From: a virus
Taxonomy: Duplodnaviria > Heunggongvirae > Uroviricota > Caudoviricetes
Strand: one strand, 5' to 3'
Length of the DNA: 5,563 nt
Virus record (IMG/VR): IMGVR_UViG_2617270980_000005
Shown: positions 1 to 5,563 of the stretch, in pieces
How positions within the stretch are numbered: the first letter of the stretch is position 1
How the letters are laid out: every line of letters begins with the position of its first letter
Position numbers and translations under genes: made by a program
Notes under the pieces: generated by a model
Told to the model about the DNA's origin: nothing
The model's database searches: none
The model's input: only the letters and a program-made list of their open reading frames with translations

Positions 1-229
1 CCAGCTCTTTCAGACGCTGACGTTCAGCGCTGGTGAGCCCACCATCACCGCCCCCGGTATCCCGCTCATGCTGGCGAACCCAGACACGCAGAGTCTCCGG
101 CGTACAGCCAATCTTTGGGGCAATGGAACAAATTGCCGCCCACTGTGAGTCATATTCATCCTGACTTTCCAGAACCATACGAATCGCCCGCTGACGGACT
201 TCGGGGGAAAAACGAGTATTTTTAGTCAT
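1..229 (-). CDS. IS3-family transposase OrfA, N-terminal 76 codons (partial, runs off window start)
   Basis: ATG at 229-227 on the minus strand, preceded by GAGG (AAAGAGGTAAACAGG ATG); open frame to position 1; HTH-type N-terminus characteristic of IS3-family OrfA. Confidence 0.8.
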
Positions 230-283
230 CCTGTTTACCTCTTTCTCAGGGAGTTTAGTCTCCAGGATTTCCGGGGCGGTTCA
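1..283 (-). mobile_element. IS3-family insertion sequence (IS629/IS1203-like), partial; one terminus at 283, element continues beyond the window start
   Basis: Reverse complement of 231-283 reads TGAACCGCCCCGGAAATCCTGGAGACTAAACTCCCTGAGAAAGAGGTAAACAG, a TGA-initiated terminal inverted repeat typical of IS3-family ends, followed immediately by the orfA start. The encoded protein begins [76 protein letters not shown], which I recognise from memory as IS629/IS1203-type OrfA. Exact IS name not verified. Confidence 0.8.
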
Positions 284-459
284 GAGTTGTATACATCGCC
301 ACTGGCAACCAGCTCTCTGGCAAGAGCGCTCATCAGATATCTTGTCGCACCTGTCTTGGCTTCCAGTTGCCGTAACGTCTCACGACCGCTCTGGCGCACG
401 AGTTCCACCACCTGCCCTTTAATTTTTTCCCGCTCTTCTTGTGTAAAAACTTTTGCCAC
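284..459 (-). pseudogene. 5' portion (58 codons) of a phage gene downstream of the replication initiator, interrupted by the IS; the 74-aa ORF in the track is a fusion whose last ~15 residues are encoded by the IS terminus
   Basis: GTG start at 459-457 preceded by GGGGGA Shine-Dalgarno (AAGGGGGACTT GTG), 40 bp after the initiator stop. Native frame reads MAKVFTQEEREKIKGQVVELVRQSGRETLRQLEAKTGATRYLMSALARELVASGDVYN, then crosses the IS boundary at 283/284 and stops inside the IS inverted repeat. Identity of the native protein not recognised. Confidence 0.5.
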
Positions 460-499
460 AAGTCCCCCTTAAAATTACCTCATGACCTGAAATCAACAC

Positions 500-1465
500 T
501 TATCCCCTGAAACCAGGCGGAATTTCGGTATCCGGTTCAGAAATATGATTCACACAACGCTTTATTGGCGAACGCCCCAGGCGAATAACCAGCTCATCCC
601 ATTTTTCGCGAAGCTTTGACGGACTCATGATGTTTTTGACCCAGAATGGATCTCGCTGTACCCGACCAAACATTTCGCAAATTTGTCTGTGGCTTCTGCC
701 ATCCAGCATCCGCATTGTGCGCACGTCATTGGCCCAGGCAGTCCAGTTAGGCTCTTTTGGTCGCATGATCTCGCCATCATCACTGGCGGCCTGTTCGTAG
801 AGACCCACGATCCGCCCCCAGATCCACTGCGCACACGCCAAATCCTCCCTGCTACCCCACTGCCGTTTTTTCGCACTAAACACAACTGCGTCAGGGTGCC
901 GGATTAAAAAATCCTGTTCAGCCGTCTGCTGGTCCGGTTGCAAAGCTTCCGGACGAAAAGTGTTTTTATTCTCTGTAGTAATCTCTGTTGTATTCTCTGT
1001 AGGATCATCGGGCCATTTTGACCCGATGACATTGGGTCGTTTTGAACCAATGGAGCGTTTCATTTTGACCTCTTCCATCATGTCATTTTGACCTGATGGA
1101 GCGACGCATTTTGAACTGATGGATTCGCTCAATTTGCCACCATCTAAAAGATCGCTCCCATAGTTGATCGTGTAGAAATTGGTCATGTCGCGCTTTGATT
1201 TATTGAGCTTTTCGCAACGCAAAAGCCCCAGCGTTTTCAGACTTGCAAACGCGCGCTTTAACGTTGACTCTGACCAGAACGGGAACTGCGCCAGCCATTG
1301 TTCCGTTGTGTTGTAAATCCAGCGAACACCATCACATTCCATGCCGGAATTGGTATCTCTCAACCAGTAATGCAGTTGCTGCAACACAATGGCTTCGTTT
1401 AAGCCAATCTTCATCGCAAGCTGTGTGTTTATAACCAGTGGGCGTTCAGCAAAAAGAAGGCTCAT
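500..1465 (-). CDS. phage replication initiator / replisome organiser (lambda O-like role), 321 aa from ATG 1465; the track ORF extends to an upstream TTG at 1519
   Basis: Long minus-strand ORF in the position lambda O occupies (after cro-like and cII-position genes). It contains in-frame DNA iterons in the interdomain linker (…SIGSKRPNVIGSKWPDDPTENTTEITTENKNT…), a hallmark of O-type initiators whose origin lies inside the gene. Domain family not assigned from memory. Confidence 0.8.
   Translation of the reverse strand: MSLLFAERPLVINTQLAMKIGLNEAIVLQQLHYWLRDTNSGMECDGVRWIYNTTEQWLAQFPFWSESTLKRAFASLKTLGLLRCEKLNKSKRDMTNFYTINYGSDLLDGGKLSESISSKCVAPSGQNDMMEEVKMKRSIGSKRPNVIGSKWPDDPTENTTEITTENKNTFRPEALQPDQQTAEQDFLIRHPDAVVFSAKKRQWGSREDLACAQWIWGRIVGLYEQAASDDGEIMRPKEPNWTAWANDVRTMRMLDGRSHRQICEMFGRVQRDPFWVKNIMSPSKLREKWDELVIRLGRSPIKRCVNHISEPDTEIPPGFRG
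961..1125. repeat. candidate phage replication origin: five ~23-bp iterons (1009-1123) plus an adjacent AT-rich region with a 3x ~12-bp direct repeat (961-1008)
   Basis: Direct repeats with cores CATTTTGACC (1014), CGTTTTGAACC (1038), CATTTTGACC (1061), CATTTTGACC (1084), CATTTTGAAC (1107), spaced 23-24 bp. Several have inverted-repeat arms (ATCGGG..CCCGAT, CATTGG..CCAATG, CCATCA..TGATGG). Flanking 961-1008 is AT-rich with TCTCTGT(A/T)G three times. Confidence 0.65.
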
Positions 1466-1967
1466 AATTCCATCCAGCTTTTTGTTGGTATTGCTGTCGA
1501 TACGCAAGCTTGAAAGCAATTGCTTTTTCTATAAGTTCGTCAGTTTCACGATCTACAACGGCAGGATCTGCAAAAAGCAGTCCGGACTCCACCACATCGC
1601 CATATTCTTTATTTAACCCAGCGATCATGTACGTAATGCTCTTTCCGTCACTAATTTCACGATACAACCTGAAATCACTAATCCGGATAGCCTCCATAAT
1701 TGCAGGCACTAGCGCTGTGAACTTTTCACGCTTATCCCTGGTGTCGATAGCCTTCCAGCGTTCAAATATCTTCACTCGATTAACGCTAAGCGCTCGCTGA
1801 TCAACCGCGCCACCTTCATATGTGACACGCTGAACATCGATGTTCGGGCGCTCTTTCAAAGCCCAGAATGCTTCAGTGATTAATATCGTCGCCTGCTCCT
1901 GTGTCATTCCTGGTCGACATATCCAGGCATCCAGAGCCTCACGAGCCTGTTCAGGAGTGATTTTCAT
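1446..1967 (-). CDS. hypothetical prophage early protein, 173 aa, in the cII position between the cro-like gene and the replication initiator
   Basis: ATG at 1967-1965; overlaps the dicC 3' end by 17 bp and the initiator start by 20 bp (compact operon). Protein MKITPEQAREALDAWICRPGMTQEQATILITEAFWALKERPNIDVQRV… looks globular and charged-balanced. Likely the intact counterpart of the decayed ydfX/ydfW region of K-12 Qin (from memory, unverified). Confidence 0.7.
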   Translation of the reverse strand: MKITPEQAREALDAWICRPGMTQEQATILITEAFWALKERPNIDVQRVTYEGGAVDQRALSVNRVKIFERWKAIDTRDKREKFTALVPAIMEAIRISDFRLYREISDGKSITYMIAGLNKEYGDVVESGLLFADPAVVDRETDELIEKAIAFKLAYRQQYQQKAGWNYEPSFC

Positions 1968-2181
1968 TGTTCAACCGCCCCGCCCGCTTCGTCTTACGAT
2001 ATTCGTCATAAACTTTGGGATCATACTGAAGCTCCCCGCCAGATGCCTCCTGTAGACGCATCGCGCGACCTTCGGGAACTAAATCCCCTTTCCAGCTATA
2101 AAGCGAAGCCAAACGAATACCTGCTGCTTGTGCAAGTTTTGTTTTTGAACCGAAATACAAAAGAGCGTCAGTTTTAAGCAT
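1951..2181 (-). CDS. dicC: DicC, Cro-like HTH regulator of the Qin-type immunity switch (76 aa)
   Basis: ATG at 2181-2179 with AAGG 7-8 nt upstream on the minus strand; protein MLKTDALLYFGSKTKLAQAAGIRLASLYSWKGDLVPEGRAMRLQEASGG… matches remembered DicC; divergent from dicA. Confidence 0.9.
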   Translation of the reverse strand: MLKTDALLYFGSKTKLAQAAGIRLASLYSWKGDLVPEGRAMRLQEASGGELQYDPKVYDEYRKTKRAGRLNNENHS

Positions 2182-2264: not shown

Positions 2265-2672
2265 ATGGATACAAAAAATTTAACCATCGGCGAACGCATT
2301 AGGTATCGTCGGAAAAACCTCAAACACACCCAAAGGTCTCTTGCTAAAGCCCTGAAAATCTCCCATGTGTCTGTATCACAATGGGAACGGGATGATAGTG
2401 AACCTACAGGGAAGAACCTTTTTGCCCTCAGCAAAGTATTGCAATGCTCACCAACATGGATTCTATTTGGCGATGAAGACAAGCAACCAACACCACCTGT
2501 TGAGAAGCCGGTTGCCTTAGCCCCCAAAGAACTAGAGCTCCTTGAGCTGTTTAATGCACTGCCAGAATCAGAACAGGATACCCAGCTCGCCGAAATGCGA
2601 GCTCGAGTAAAAAATTTCAATAAACTCTTTGAAGAATTACTAAAAGCCCGTCAGCGGACAAATAAAAGATAA
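2265..2672 (+). CDS. dicA: DicA, XRE/CI-family HTH repressor of the dicB operon (135 aa)
   Basis: Protein MDTKNLTIGERIRYRRKNLKHTQRSLAKALKISHVSVSQWERDDSEPTGKNLFALSKVLQCSPTWILFGDEDKQ…KARQRTNKR matches remembered DicA essentially full length; N-terminal HTH; divergent from dicC. Confidence 0.95.
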   Translation: MDTKNLTIGERIRYRRKNLKHTQRSLAKALKISHVSVSQWERDDSEPTGKNLFALSKVLQCSPTWILFGDEDKQPTPPVEKPVALAPKELELLELFNALPESEQDTQLAEMRARVKNFNKLFEELLKARQRTNKR

Positions 2673-2838: not shown

Positions 2839-2994
2839 ATGGATACTATCGATCTTGGCAACAGCGAATCTCTGGTATGTGGCGTGTTCCCCAATCAGGA
2901 CGGCACGTTCACCGCGATGACGTATACCAAAAGCAAAACGTTTAAAACCGAAAATGGTGCCCGTCGCTGGCTGGAAAGAAACTCAGGTGAGTGA
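2839..2994 (+). CDS. ydfA: YdfA-like small protein (51 aa), first gene of the dicB operon
   Basis: ATG 2839 preceded by GAGG (AAATGAGGTCAGC ATG); protein MDTIDLGNSESLVCGVFPNQDGTFTAMTYTKSKTFKTENGARRWLERNSGE matches remembered YdfA length and sequence. The track ORF start at 2761 is an upstream in-frame TTG without RBS. Confidence 0.85.
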   Translation: MDTIDLGNSESLVCGVFPNQDGTFTAMTYTKSKTFKTENGARRWLERNSGE

Positions 2995-2995
2995 T

Positions 2996-3571
2996 ATGGA
3001 TTTCGACACAATCATGGAAAAGGCTTACGAAGAATACTTCGAAGGCCTTGCCGAAGGCGAAGAAGCTCTCAGCTTCAGTGAGTTTAAACAGGCACTCAGA
3101 ATAAGAATGTGCTCTCACAATGACGCGGAGCACAAATATGAGAAGCAAAATCAGACCGCAGAAAATTTTGTTCTGGAACCCGGAGAAACGCTTTTCAAAA
3201 TTCCCGTTACGTGCCCCATTTGCGGTTTTACATCAGAAGAACTTGACGACTCCTGTAACAATCAGGAAACAACCAAGTATGTCGAAGATGATACCGAGTG
3301 CGCACGAAGAACGATTATATCCACGAGTCCAAACTCCAGGACCAATAAATCTCACCTTGAGAGGGTAATTAATCCACTCCCCCAAACCAATAAAAAAGAT
3401 GCCGGAGGACAAAAAACCCAATGGAACAACGGGATATCTGTCAAAAAAAGACGTTCCATTAAAGACAAACAACGCAGCGCCAACAACTGTAAGCGCTTTA
3501 TACCAGTAATCAATTTTCATGTTCTTAAGCGGATTTATTGGTGGTTGCGACATTGCTTAATGAATCCTTAA
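2996..3571 (+). CDS. ydfB: YdfB-like protein, here as an extended 191-codon frame (acidic N-terminal region, CPICG..C motif); 3' extent uncertain
   Basis: ATG 2996 with AGGTGAG Shine-Dalgarno, start coupled to the ydfA stop (TGAtATG). N-terminal ~105 aa look protein-like (MDFDTIMEKAYEEYFEGLAEGEEALSFSEFKQAL…VTCPICGFTSEELDDSC…). The C-terminal half is low-complexity K/N/R/S-rich with rare Arg/Ile codons and is overlapped by an alternative + frame (3138-3368) and a minus-strand ORF (3233-3553), so the true coding end is unresolved. Confidence 0.5.
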   Translation: MDFDTIMEKAYEEYFEGLAEGEEALSFSEFKQALRIRMCSHNDAEHKYEKQNQTAENFVLEPGETLFKIPVTCPICGFTSEELDDSCNNQETTKYVEDDTECARRTIISTSPNSRTNKSHLERVINPLPQTNKKDAGGQKTQWNNGISVKKRRSIKDKQRSANNCKRFIPVINFHVLKRIYWWLRHCLMNP

Positions 3572-3830: not shown

Positions 3831-3883
3831 TTTCTGGTGACGTTTGGCGGTATCAGTTTTACTCCGTGACTGCTCTGCCGCCG
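3831..3883 (+). ncRNA. dicF: DicF small regulatory RNA (about 53 nt)
   Basis: TTTCTGGTGACGTTTGGCGGTATCAGTTTTACTCCGTGACTGCTCTGCCGCCG matches the remembered DicF sequence nearly base for base; located between the ydfB/ydfC region and dicB as in the Qin dicB operon; followed by a T5 run. Confidence 0.9.
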
Positions 3884-4057: not shown

Positions 4058-4246
4058 ATGAAAACGTTATTACCAAACGTTAATACGTCTGAAGGTTGTT
4101 TTGAAATTGGTGTCACTATCAGTAACCCTGTATTTACTGAAGATGCCATTAACAAGAGAAAACAAGAACGGGAGCTATTAAATAAAATATGCATTGTTTC
4201 AATGCTGGCTCGTTTACGTCTGATGCCAAAAGGATGTGCACAATGA
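4058..4246 (+). CDS. dicB: DicB, cell-division inhibitor (62 aa)
   Basis: ATG 4058 with GAGGA 9 nt upstream; protein MKTLLPNVNTSEGCFEIGVTISNPVFTEDAINKRKQERELLNKICIVSMLARLRLMPKGCAQ matches remembered DicB. The longer 97-aa track ORF (3953) is an in-frame 5' extension without RBS. Confidence 0.95.
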   Translation: MKTLLPNVNTSEGCFEIGVTISNPVFTEDAINKRKQERELLNKICIVSMLARLRLMPKGCAQ

Positions 4247-4527: not shown

Positions 4528-5563
4528 ATGAGTAAAGTCTTTATTTGCGCCGCTATTCCTGACGAACTGGCAACAAGGGAAGAAGGCGCTGTGGCTGTAG
4601 CCACAGCCATTGAAGCTGGCGACGAACGCCGTGCTCGAGCAAAATTTCACTGGCAGTTCCTGGAACATTATCCGGCTGCTCAGGACTGCGCTTATAAATT
4701 TATTGTCTGCGAGGATAAACCTGGCATACCCCGCCCTGCCCTCGATTCATGGGATGCTGAATATATGCAGGAAAACCGCTGGGATGAGGAGTCTGCTTCT
4801 TTTGTCCCGGTTGAGACTGAATCCGATCCGATGAACGTCACTTTTGACAAGCTGGCCCCTGAAGTACAGAACGCTGTCATGGTTAAGTTCGACACATGTG
4901 AAAACATCACCGTTGATATGGTTATTAGCGCACAGGAATTGTTGCAGGAAGACATGGCAACATTCGACGGACATATCGTTGAAGCGTTGATGAAAATGCC
5001 AGAAGTTAACGCCATGTATCCGGAGCTTAAGTTGCACGCCATTGGGTGGGTTAAGCATAAATGTATTCCTGGTGCTAAATGGCCCGAAATTCAGGCAGAG
5101 ATGCGCATCTGGAAAAAACGTCGCGAAGGTGAACGCAAGGAAACCGGAAAATACACGTCTGTTGTTGATCTCGCCCGCGCCAAAGCCAATCAACAGTACA
5201 CTGAAAATTCAACAGGAAAAATCAGCCCGGTCATTGCTGCCATTCATCGCGAATACAAGCAGACATGGAAAACACTGGATGACGAACTGGCCTACGCTCT
5301 CTGGCCTGGTGATGTAGATGCCGGAAACATTGACAGCAGCATCCATCGCTGGGCAAAAAATGAAGTTATCGACAACGACCGCGAAGACTGGAAGCGTATC
5401 TCGGCATCAATGCGCAAACAGCCTGATGCCCTTCGCTACGACCGCCAGACTATTTTTGGCCTTGTCCGTGAACGTCCGATCGACATTCACAAAGACCCTG
5501 TGGCACTGAACAAATACATTACTGAATACCTGACTACAAAGGGCGTGTTTGAAGATGAAGGAA
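4528..5563 (+). CDS. ydfE: YdfE-like prophage protein, at least 345 aa, 3' end beyond the window; function unknown
   Basis: ATG 4528 with GAGG upstream (CATGAGGTTAAAACAAA ATG). I translated the frame codon by codon to position 5563 with no stop (MSKVFICAAIPDELATREEGAVAVATAIEAGDERRARAKFHWQFLEHYPAAQDCAYKF…KGVFEDEG). It is missing from the ORF track only because it has no stop in the window. N-terminus matches what I recall of YdfE. Confidence 0.85.
   Translation, partial: MSKVFICAAIPDELATREEGAVAVATAIEAGDERRARAKFHWQFLEHYPAAQDCAYKFIVCEDKPGIPRPALDSWDAEYMQENRWDEESASFVPVETESDPMNVTFDKLAPEVQNAVMVKFDTCENITVDMVISAQELLQEDMATFDGHIVEALMKMPEVNAMYPELKLHAIGWVKHKCIPGAKWPEIQAEMRIWKKRREGERKETGKYTSVVDLARAKANQQYTENSTGKISPVIAAIHREYKQTWKTLDDELAYALWPGDVDAGNIDSSIHRWAKNEVIDNDREDWKRISASMRKQPDALRYDRQTIFGLVRERPIDIHKDPVALNKYITEYLTTKGVFEDEG

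What the first reader, a model, noticed from the sequence alone, without database searches (positions are those of the whole stretch)
1..459. IS3-family insertion truncates the gene immediately downstream of the replication initiator
The IS terminus (…TGAACCGCC on the minus strand) abuts position 284 inside codon 59 of a GTG-initiated gene that starts 40 bp after the initiator stop, the position where lambdoid phages usually carry the helicase-loader partner. Read-through into the IS inverted repeat creates a 74-aa fusion ORF. The replication module is therefore probably non-functional and the prophage defective, while the immunity and dicB operons remain intact.
Basis: partly seen in the sequence, partly recalled or inferred. 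Interest (0 to 1): 0.5.

Follow-up and report, generated by a model that had tools for sequence, protein, structure and literature searches.

The report
IS1203 insertion in prophage ren-like gene

Summary
Window 1-283 (minus strand) is 100% identical to the first 283 nt of IS1203 (IS3 family). It abuts codon 59 of a GTG-started gene 40 bp downstream of an O-like initiator, giving a 74-aa fusion ORF.

The window is a whole draft contig (JNMX01000112.1). I found the other junction on the neighbouring contig of the same assembly: IS1203 right end, CTC, then the rest of the gene. This is a simple 1,310-bp insertion with a 3-bp target duplication and no deletion.

The interrupted gene is not a helicase loader. 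It is a DUF977 (PF06163) protein, usually about 140 aa, in the same PHROG as lambda Ren. It has an N-terminal winged helix and a near-invariant C-terminal core, which the IS removes. Where lambdoid phages carry a P or DnaC-like loader, this gene lies after it. The same loader-less initiator + DUF977 module occurs in isolated phages, and related initiators work in phages with neither gene. The initiator, its iterons, dicA, dicC, DicF and dicB are intact.

"Replication module dead, prophage defective" is therefore not supported by this insertion, though the same prophage has a second IS1203 in rem and a frameshifted defence-candidate gene. Ordinary finding, low interest.

The parts
1..283 (-). 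Left 283 nt of IS1203 (IS3 family, 1,310 bp in full). The imperfect 25-bp left inverted repeat is at about 283-259. The orfA (HTH_Tnp_1) start is at 229-227 and the ORF runs off the contig end.
   Evidence: 100% identity to a reference IS1203 copy. Inverted repeat pair. Called gene with PF01527.
284..286 (-). One copy of the 3-bp target-site duplication (CTC on the minus strand). The second copy is on contig JNMX01000113.1 (L012 835-837).
   Evidence: Window reads ...AACTC|TGAACC. L012 reads ...GGTTCA|CTC|TGGTTACGGG. The intact relative reads AACTCTGGTTACGGG.
235..459 (-). 74-aa fusion ORF: residues 1-59 of a DUF977 / Ren-like protein (helices 1-3 and the first wing strand of a winged helix), then 15 residues read from the IS inverted repeat, then TAA.
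   Evidence: ORF list. PF06163, 39 bits against a cut-off of 22.1, matching profile positions 1-58 of 134. phrog_142, 1.6e-21. Model of a full-length homologue.
460..499 (-). 40-nt spacer between the initiator stop and the DUF977 GTG, containing an AAGGGGG Shine-Dalgarno-like sequence.
   Evidence: Sequence. The same start is used in RefSeq annotation of relatives.
500..1465 (-). Intact 321-aa O-like replication initiator (phrog_391). Its last 20 residues resemble the DnaT C-terminus.
   Evidence: phrog_391, 4.5e-91. Protein identical to that of the uninterrupted relative. 95% identical to the initiators of phages HannyBb, mEp460_ev081 and PhiR42_1. DnaT tail.
967..1136 (.). Putative origin inside the initiator gene: about five 23-bp iterons (core CATTTTGA[A/C]C, 1006-1136) preceded by three 12-bp repeats (967-1002).
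   Evidence: the repeat finder families D1-D3. Analogous to the lambda ori iterons inside O.
1446..1967 (-). YdaT-family / CII-like protein (173 aa).
   Evidence: PF06254. phrog_163 'CII-like'.
1951..2181 (-). dicC (Cro-like, 76 aa).
   Evidence: PF14549. RefSeq name in the relative. Identical protein.
2265..2672 (+). dicA repressor (135 aa), intact.
   Evidence: HTH_3. RefSeq name. Identical protein.
3832..3883 (+). DicF sRNA.
   Evidence: RF00039, 72.5 bits against a gathering score of 48.
4058..4246 (+). dicB (62 aa), intact.
   Evidence: PF05358 on the called gene. Identical to the relative's DicB.

Best explanation
A complete 1,310-bp IS1203 copy (IS629 group, IS3 family) transposed into codon 59 of the DUF977 / Ren-like gene ('LygF' in some phage records) of a Qin-like lambdoid prophage. 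The strain is E. coli 3-475-03_S4_C2, assembly GCA_000700685.1. The insertion duplicated the 3-bp target CTC.

Shown: both junctions, the duplication, the absence of any deletion, and the identity of the IS and of the gene family.

The insertion cuts the protein inside the wing of its N-terminal winged-helix domain. It removes residues 60-142, which form the nearly invariant core of the family. What remains is a 59 + 15 aa fusion product and, on the far side, a promoter-less remnant.

The hit gene occupies the slot that ren occupies in lambda (cro-cII-O-P-ren). It is an accessory gene at the end of the replication operon, not the helicase loader. This prophage type natively has no loader gene.

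Inferred: the initiator and origin are intact, so the insertion by itself probably does not abolish replication. Its likely effects are loss of the Ren-like function, whatever that is in this phage, and possible polarity on the genes between the replication module and the Q antiterminator. Transposition by the usual IS3-family copy-out/paste-in route is assumed from knowledge of the family and was not tested.
For: IS identity: 283/283 at the left end and 834/834 at the right end. rve domains on the right-end ORF. The reference copy has TG...CA ends, a 25-bp inverted repeat and a 3-bp duplication.

Other junction: it was predicted in advance. The exact 110-aa junction-spanning product then turned up in the collection, on JNMX01000113.1 of the same assembly. 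The sequence reads GGTTCA|CTC|TGGTTACGGG. The two contigs abut on the intact relative at L001 7315-7317, with 99.9% identity on both sides. The same junction is present in two metagenomes.

Gene identity: PF06163. phrog_142 at full length, for both this family and lambda Ren. Shared C-terminal motif with Ren. Winged-helix model and structural neighbours. Conserved core at residues 59-131.

Position: lambda order O-P-ren. Phage 75/02 order initiator, DnaC-like, DUF1627, DUF977.

Loader-less module in phages: HannyBb, mEp460_ev081, PhiR42_1. Related initiators with neither gene: mEp460_4F5, SfIV, Kati; mEp460 is confirmed to be lytic- and lysogeny-competent (PMC9836094).

Literature: ren mutants are impaired only in Rex+ lysogens (Thomason et al. 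supplement). Ren is not needed for ori-lambda replicative killing (PMC3640518).
Against: No experiment shows what DUF977 proteins do. Direct sequence similarity to lambda Ren is limited to about 23 C-terminal residues; the full-length link rests on PHROG clustering. Ren itself is suspected of an unidentified replication role, with suppressors in O and P and an association with initiator-loader modules. In every close (at least 95%) copy of this initiator found in phage records, DUF977 follows it, so co-dependence is not excluded. The phages that lack DUF977 have initiators only 46-67% identical. Draft contigs cannot show whether the 3.8-kb segment between the two inverted IS1203 copies has been inverted.
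Confidence: 0.8

Rival explanations
1. The DUF977 protein is the initiator's obligatory partner in helicase recruitment in this loader-less module, so the insertion kills prophage replication.
For: It sits 40 bp after the initiator stop in the same operon. In sister prophages the slot directly after this same initiator holds a DnaC-like ATPase. All phage records with a 95%-identical initiator also carry DUF977. Tritos pairs a different initiator with DUF977 at the same 40-bp spacing and has no loader. The literature suspects a replication role for Ren.
Against: No similarity to P or DnaC/IstB; the fold is a winged helix. It coexists with a DnaC-like loader in phage 75/02, where it lies two genes further on. 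Related initiators function in mEp460, SfIV and Kati with neither a loader nor DUF977. Lambda ren is dispensable outside Rex+ hosts.
Confidence: 0.1
2. It is not a simple insertion. The junction results from an IS-mediated rearrangement (deletion, or inversion between IS copies) or from an assembly chimera at a repeat.
For: The contig ends inside the IS. A second IS1203 in inverted orientation lies 3.8 kb away, so inversion by homologous recombination is possible and would be invisible in a short-read draft.
Against: Matching 3-bp duplication (CTC) on the two junctions, and perfect collinearity with the uninterrupted relative on both sides with no missing base. The junction recurs in independent assemblies.
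Confidence: 0.07
3. The main consequence is polarity rather than loss of the protein. The two IS1203 copies, in DUF977 and in rem, lie between the early rightward (pR-equivalent) promoter and the Q-type antiterminator gene. They block read-through and so cripple late gene expression.
For: In the relative the gene order is DUF977, defence candidate, hokD, rem, ydfU, ydfT (antiterminator). Two IS copies interrupt this stretch.
Against: The terminator-like scan of IS1203 is at chance level, 2 found against 1.4 expected. No expression data exist. The promoter structure of Qin-like prophages downstream of the replication genes was not examined.
Confidence: 0.25

Closest known systems
IS629 / IS1203 insertions in lambdoid prophages of E. 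coli O157 and other STEC/EPEC and of Shigella (IS3 family)
   Same: Identical element (100% over the 283 + 834 nt held), TG...CA ends, 3-bp target duplication, and a prophage early-region target.
   Different: Nothing in kind, only the particular site. No complete E. coli genome among the 5,426 searched has this junction. It is seen in this strain, in 3 samples holding the same contig, and in at least two gut metagenomes.
Bacteriophage lambda ren (Ren, 96 aa)
   Same: Same PHROG (phrog_142), with both proteins covering the whole profile. Same C-terminal motif ECR.S..M.R.LA.Y. N-terminal winged-helix-type region. Same place at the end of the cro-cII-O-(P) operon.
   Different: DUF977 proteins are about 45 residues longer, with a conserved central segment (SGYGLFPSEQARKDWQNARKKLSRAK) that has no counterpart in Ren. 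Ren does not hit Pfam DUF977. No rex genes are evident in the window. A function in Rex exclusion is untested for DUF977.
Lambda P and DnaC/IstB-like phage helicase loaders
   Same: Only the position immediately after an initiator gene.
   Different: No sequence or fold similarity. Real loaders of both kinds were identified in comparison loci and look quite different: PF06992 for lambda P, and PF01695 / phrog_50 for the 248-aa ATPase in L014 and L011.
Qin cryptic prophage of E. coli K-12 (dicA-dicC-dicF-dicB region)
   Same: dicA, dicC, ydfA, DicF, dicB, ydfD, and downstream hokD, rem, ydfU, ydfT, at the ydfJ side of the chromosome in the relative.
   Different: This version keeps the YdaT-like, O-like and DUF977 genes. 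From my own knowledge, not tested here, these are missing or decayed in K-12 Qin.

Membership tests
IS3 family, IS1203/IS629 | Near-identity to the reference element at both ends | tested here: met
   283/283 nt at the left end (window) and 834/834 nt at the right end (L012).
IS3 family, IS1203/IS629 | Imperfect terminal inverted repeats ending 5'-TG...CA-3' | tested here: met
   TGAACCGCCCCGG...CCGGGGCGGTTCA; 25-bp inverted repeat with 22/25 matches.
IS3 family, IS1203/IS629 | 3-bp direct target duplication | tested here: met
   CTC on both sides. CTG at the reference copy.
IS3 family, IS1203/IS629 | orfA/orfB transposase with programmed -1 frameshift and a DDE (rve) domain | tested here: met
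   The reference copy is annotated 'programmed frameshift'. PF01527 on the window's orfA start and PF00665 rve on the L012 orfB part. The middle 193 nt of this strain's copy is not held.
Pfam PF06163 (DUF977) | Score above the gathering threshold | tested here: met
   Fragment: 39 bits against 22.1. Intact relative: 102.9 bits covering profile positions 1-133 of 134.
Ren-like exclusion protein (phrog_142 / lambda Ren) | Full-length match to the family profile, which also contains lambda Ren | tested here: met
   DUF977 1.5e-45 (profile 1-113 of 116). Lambda Ren 1.6e-41 (profile 11-110 of 116).
Ren-like exclusion protein (phrog_142 / lambda Ren) | Direct, full-length homology to lambda Ren | tested here: inconclusive
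   BLASTP and hhalign align only the C-terminal 20-23 residues (E 1e-5; 84% probability).
Ren-like exclusion protein (phrog_142 / lambda Ren) | Last gene of the early rightward replication operon, after the loader where one exists | tested here: met
   Lambda, phage 75/02, HannyBb, Tritos and mEp460_ev081.
Ren-like exclusion protein (phrog_142 / lambda Ren) | Protects the phage from Rex-type exclusion | not testable with these tools
   Needs plating of knockout phage on Rex+ lysogens. The lambda phenotype is cited.
Phage helicase loader (lambda P, PF06992) | Match to the P family profile | tested here: not met
   No hit for the fragment or for intact homologues. Lambda P itself scores 208.6 bits.
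Phage helicase loader (DnaC/IstB-like AAA+) | AAA+ ATPase domain (PF01695 / phrog_50) | tested here: not met
   Absent from DUF977. The model is a winged helix plus a helix. A true DnaC-like gene in sister modules scores 2.6e-18 and 2.1e-84.
Lambda O-type replication initiator (for the neighbouring 321-aa gene) | Family profile match | tested here: met
   phrog_391 'replication initiation O-like', 4.5e-91. However, Pfam Phage_rep_O (PF04492) is not matched.
Lambda O-type replication initiator (for the neighbouring 321-aa gene) | Iterons (origin) inside the initiator gene | tested here: met
   About five 23-bp repeats at 23-24-bp spacing, window 1006-1136. Compare the lambda iterons inside O. 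Binding was not tested.

The most novel reading that the evidence does not exclude
In loader-less lambdoid replication modules (a DnaT-tailed O-like initiator followed directly by DUF977), the Ren-like winged-helix protein is a required origin or helicase-recruitment cofactor. This IS insertion would then be a natural knockout of a new kind of replication accessory factor, and lambda Ren's long-suspected replication role would become testable through this family.
Probability: 0.1. Interest if true: 0.45.

Novelty: already known. Interest (0 to 1): 0.12.

Why it matters
Mostly as a correction. The gene after the initiator in Qin-like prophages should be annotated as Ren-like/DUF977, not as a helicase loader. 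An IS in it should not be taken as proof that the replication module is dead. For strain biology it adds one more example of IS1203/IS629 eroding prophage early regions: two copies plus a frameshift within 4 kb here. The only wider interest is indirect. DUF977/Ren proteins are very common, always ride with replication modules and have no known mechanism, so natural knockouts like this one could be used to probe them.

Tried and rejected
Searches for the exact junction found nothing in 5,426 complete E. coli genomes, in one-genome-per-species contigs, or, for the predicted second junction, in JGI metagenomes. The first large protein search listed only near-identical full-length family members and no remnants.

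A second search with the predicted chimeric product found a different IS1203::DUF977 chimera (P0121), not this one. The right answer came from an exact-sequence look-up of the predicted product.

The PDB sequence search for DUF977 gave no meaningful hit. Literature searches for 'DUF977' and 'LygF' gave nothing relevant. The CRISPRi-ART paper does not mention ren.

I considered that the DnaT-like tail of the initiator might replace a loader. I rejected this because the same tail occurs on initiators that are followed by a DnaC-like gene, and because the literature assigns no function to that tail.

A terminator scan of IS1203, meant to support polarity, was at chance level. NCBIfam has no model for DUF977, and PADLOC does not list it as a defence protein.

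Full report
**What the window is.** The 5,563-bp window is the whole of contig JNMX01000112.1 of assembly GCA_000700685.1. The strain name, E. coli 3-475-03_S4_C2, comes from the title of protein KDU48578.1 on the neighbouring contig. The window is 99.94% identical (3 mismatches in 5,282 nt) to part of a Qin-like lambdoid prophage in E. coli T309.Ta3. Read on the minus strand from dicA, the order is dicC (Cro-like), a YdaT/CII-like gene, a 321-aa O-like initiator, a short GTG-started gene, then the IS. On the plus strand lie dicA, ydfA, a variable region, DicF RNA (RF00039, 72.5 bits), dicB, ydfD and the start of a RecE-like exonuclease gene.

**Checking the observation.** The reverse complement of window 1-283 is identical, 283/283, to the first 283 nt of a reference IS1203 copy. 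That element is present in 3,598 of 5,426 complete E. coli genomes and is annotated 'IS3-like element IS1203 family transposase'. In a complete copy the element is 1,310 bp, begins TGAACC and ends GGTTCA, has a 25-bp imperfect inverted repeat and is flanked by a 3-bp duplication. In the window the first IS base (T, position 283) is the third base of codon 59 of the GTG-started gene. The ORF reads on for 15 IS-encoded codons to a TAA, giving 74 aa at 235-459. The GTG lies 40 nt after the initiator's stop codon.

**The other IS end and the target duplication.** No complete E. coli genome and no species-representative genome carries this junction, and the window cannot be extended because it is a whole contig. 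I therefore predicted the far junction from the reference IS and the uninterrupted relative. With a 3-bp duplication it should read GGTTCA-CTC-TGGTTACGGG and leave a 110-aa open frame spanning the junction. A scan of JGI metagenomes found nothing. An exact-sequence look-up then showed that precisely this 110-aa product exists, on JNMX01000113.1, the next contig of the same assembly. That contig begins with IS1203 nt 477-1310 (834/834) and reads ...CCCGGGGCGGTTCA|CTC|TGGTTACGGG.... On the intact relative the two contigs meet at L001 7315-7317 (CTC), with 99.9% identity on both sides and no base missing. This is a simple insertion with a 3-bp target duplication. The same left junction occurs in a Hadza gut metagenome contig and in another ENA metagenome contig, so it is a real, circulating allele.

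**What gene was hit.** Uninterrupted homologues are annotated 'DUF977 family protein' and are 119-142 aa. The large protein search found 851 relatives, almost all 135-143 aa among those listed and almost all from E. coli. The fragment matches Pfam PF06163 at profile positions 1-58 of 134, and the intact protein matches positions 1-133.
- **Ren family.** PHROGs places it in phrog_142, 'Ren-like exclusion protein' (1.5e-45, whole profile). Lambda Ren itself matches the same profile end to end at 1.6e-41.
- **Limits of the Ren link.** Direct comparison with lambda Ren recovers only a C-terminal motif (NIICSECRKSEVMQRILSFY against NLVFKECRQSAAMKRVLAVY; BLASTP E 1e-5, hhalign 84% probability). I therefore call the protein Ren-like, not a proven Ren orthologue.
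- **Fold.** An AlphaFold2 model of a 92%-identical homologue is confident for residues 1-86. It shows three helices, a beta-hairpin wing (about 56-64) and a long fourth helix. Its structural neighbours are all winged-helix domains of the GntR, IclR, MarR, Z-alpha and SelB types, at weak E-values (6e-3 to 4e-2) but consistently.
- **What the IS removes.** In an alignment of 18 family members, residues 1-58 are the variable part (two allelic classes) and residues 59-131 are almost invariant. The IS cuts inside the wing and removes the whole conserved core.

**Is it the helicase-loader partner?** No.
- **No similarity to loaders.** Lambda P matches PF06992. The 248-aa ATPase that follows this same initiator in some E. 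coli prophages matches IstB/DnaC (PF01695, phrog_50). The DUF977 protein matches neither.
- **Position relative to loaders.** In lambda the order is cII-O-P-ren. In Shigella phage 75/02 it is initiator, DnaC-like loader, DUF1627, DUF977. The family therefore sits at the end of the replication operon, after the loader when there is one.
- **Two module versions.** The initiator found here occurs in two versions. One has a DnaC-like gene 6 bp downstream plus DUF1627 (strains 204446 and MDP9-27). The other has only DUF977, 40 bp downstream (this window, T309.Ta3, the E. coli B-derived strain NEBExpress and many others).
- **The loader-less version occurs in phage records.** It is carried by HannyBb, mEp460_ev081 and PhiR42_1, with initiators 95% identical to this one. 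I take these to be isolated, viable phages, although their viability was not checked directly.
- **Initiators with neither gene.** More distant members of the same initiator family (46-67% identity) are followed by a PerC-like activator, with neither a loader nor DUF977. They occur in mEp460_4F5, SfIV and Kati. mEp460 is documented as competent for both the lytic and lysogenic cycles (PMC9836094).
- **Literature on ren.** Lambda ren mutants grow poorly only in Rex+ lysogens, with suppressors in O and P. Ren interacts with RexA and RexB, and a replication role is suspected but unidentified (Thomason et al., bioRxiv 10.1101/2021.04.19.439022, supplement). Ren is not needed for ori-lambda-dependent replicative killing (PMC3640518).

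**Consequences.** The initiator protein is identical to that of the uninterrupted relative, as are YdaT, DicC, DicA, YdfA and DicB. The initiator gene contains about five 23-bp iterons. The claim that the replication module is 'probably non-functional' therefore rests only on the loss of a Ren-like accessory protein, and it is not supported. It is not excluded either, because nobody has tested DUF977 function and every phage record with a 95%-identical initiator also carries DUF977.

Whether the prophage as a whole is defective cannot be judged from the window. There is further damage nearby. Contig 113 ends in a second IS1203, in inverted orientation, inserted in codon 17/18 of rem. The 798-aa AAA_13 gene between them has a 1-nt deletion; it is a full-length match to the PADLOC defence candidate PDC-S06. 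Even the closest uninterrupted relative has an internal stop in its lysozyme gene and an IS66 element in the tail-fibre region. Polarity of the two IS copies on the downstream antiterminator gene is plausible but untested; a terminator scan of the IS was at chance level.

**Verdict.** It is an IS3-family insertion that truncates the gene after the initiator, and the immunity and dicB regions are intact. But the gene is a Ren-like winged-helix accessory gene, not a helicase loader, and loss of replication is not shown. This is a known element doing a known thing in a known gene family, so interest is low.

Noticed in passing
window 503-562 (minus strand; last 20 codons of the O-like initiator): The initiator ends KRCVNHISEPDTEIPPGFRG, 75% identical to the last 20 residues of host DnaT (E 3e-8). 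The same tail sits on two other initiator families (Tritos and phage 75/02), with or without a DnaC-like gene downstream. mEp460_4F5 ends ...IPAGFRG, and lambda O lacks the tail. The papers I read assign no function to this DnaT tail.
   Followed up: partly
window 967-1136: Probable origin inside the initiator gene: about five 23-bp iterons (CATTTTGA[A/C]C core, 23-24-bp spacing) preceded by three tandem 12-bp repeats (TATTCTCTGTAG).
   Followed up: partly
L012 (JNMX01000113.1) 4662-5495: A second IS1203 copy, inverted relative to the first and 3.8 kb away, interrupts rem at codon 17/18 (...GGCCTCTA|TGAACCGCC). The two copies bracket the DUF977 remnant, the AAA_13 gene and hokD like a composite element. 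Inversion of the segment cannot be excluded from the draft assembly.
   Followed up: partly
L012 1186-3581 (against L001 7666-10062): The 798-aa AAA_13 ATPase just downstream of DUF977 is a full-length match to the PADLOC candidate defence family PDC-S06 (E = 0). In this strain a 1-nt deletion splits it into 171-aa and 656-aa ORFs.
   Followed up: partly
L013 (RVAX02000115.1) 1-424; proteins P0121 and P0195: An independent IS1203 right end is fused to a different (90% identical) DUF977 allele, 24 bp upstream of this window's site (GGTTCA|GGTTGCCAGTGGC). IS1203 has thus hit the same short stretch of this gene family at least twice. Whether this is a hotspot was not tested.
   Followed up: partly
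L004 6030-6291 and L006 2578-2903: The identical IS1203/DUF977 junction occurs in a Hadza gut metagenome (ERZ4561120) and in another ENA metagenome (ERZ27287107), so the interrupted allele circulates outside the sequenced isolate.
   Followed up: partly
L014 3136-5636 and L015 3136-5647: The same O-like initiator (88-92% nt identity) exists in an alternative module with a DnaC/IstB-like ATPase 6 bp downstream, then DUF1627, and no adjacent DUF977. The loader and the Ren-like gene appear to be swapped in and out as cassettes behind one initiator.
   Followed up: partly
alignment A2 (DUF977 family); window 284-459: The N-terminal winged helix of DUF977 proteins comes in two sharply different allelic classes (…QSGRETLRQLEAKTGATRYLMSVLAREL… and …LNGRGTIRQLSDEIGVSHASVGRLCMEL…), while residues 59-131 are almost invariant. 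This pattern suggests a variable specificity domain joined to a constant effector domain.
   Followed up: no
L012 758-1090: On the far side of the IS, a frame left open at the IS right end runs into the DUF977 remnant. It gives a 110-aa ORF: 25 IS-derived residues plus the conserved core (residues 58-142). There is no obvious ribosome-binding site, and expression is unknown.
   Followed up: no
window 2954-3571 (plus strand) and 3233-3553 (minus strand): Between ydfA and DicF there is a 205-aa ORF with no Pfam hit, overlapped by a 106-aa antisense ORF. RefSeq annotates only a truncated ydfB pseudogene here in the relative, and this region differs between Qin-like prophages.
   Followed up: no
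window 5563 (right end): The contig stops inside the RecE-like exonuclease gene (L001 602-3073) without any IS sequence. This is probably an assembly break at a repeat shared with another prophage.
   Followed up: no
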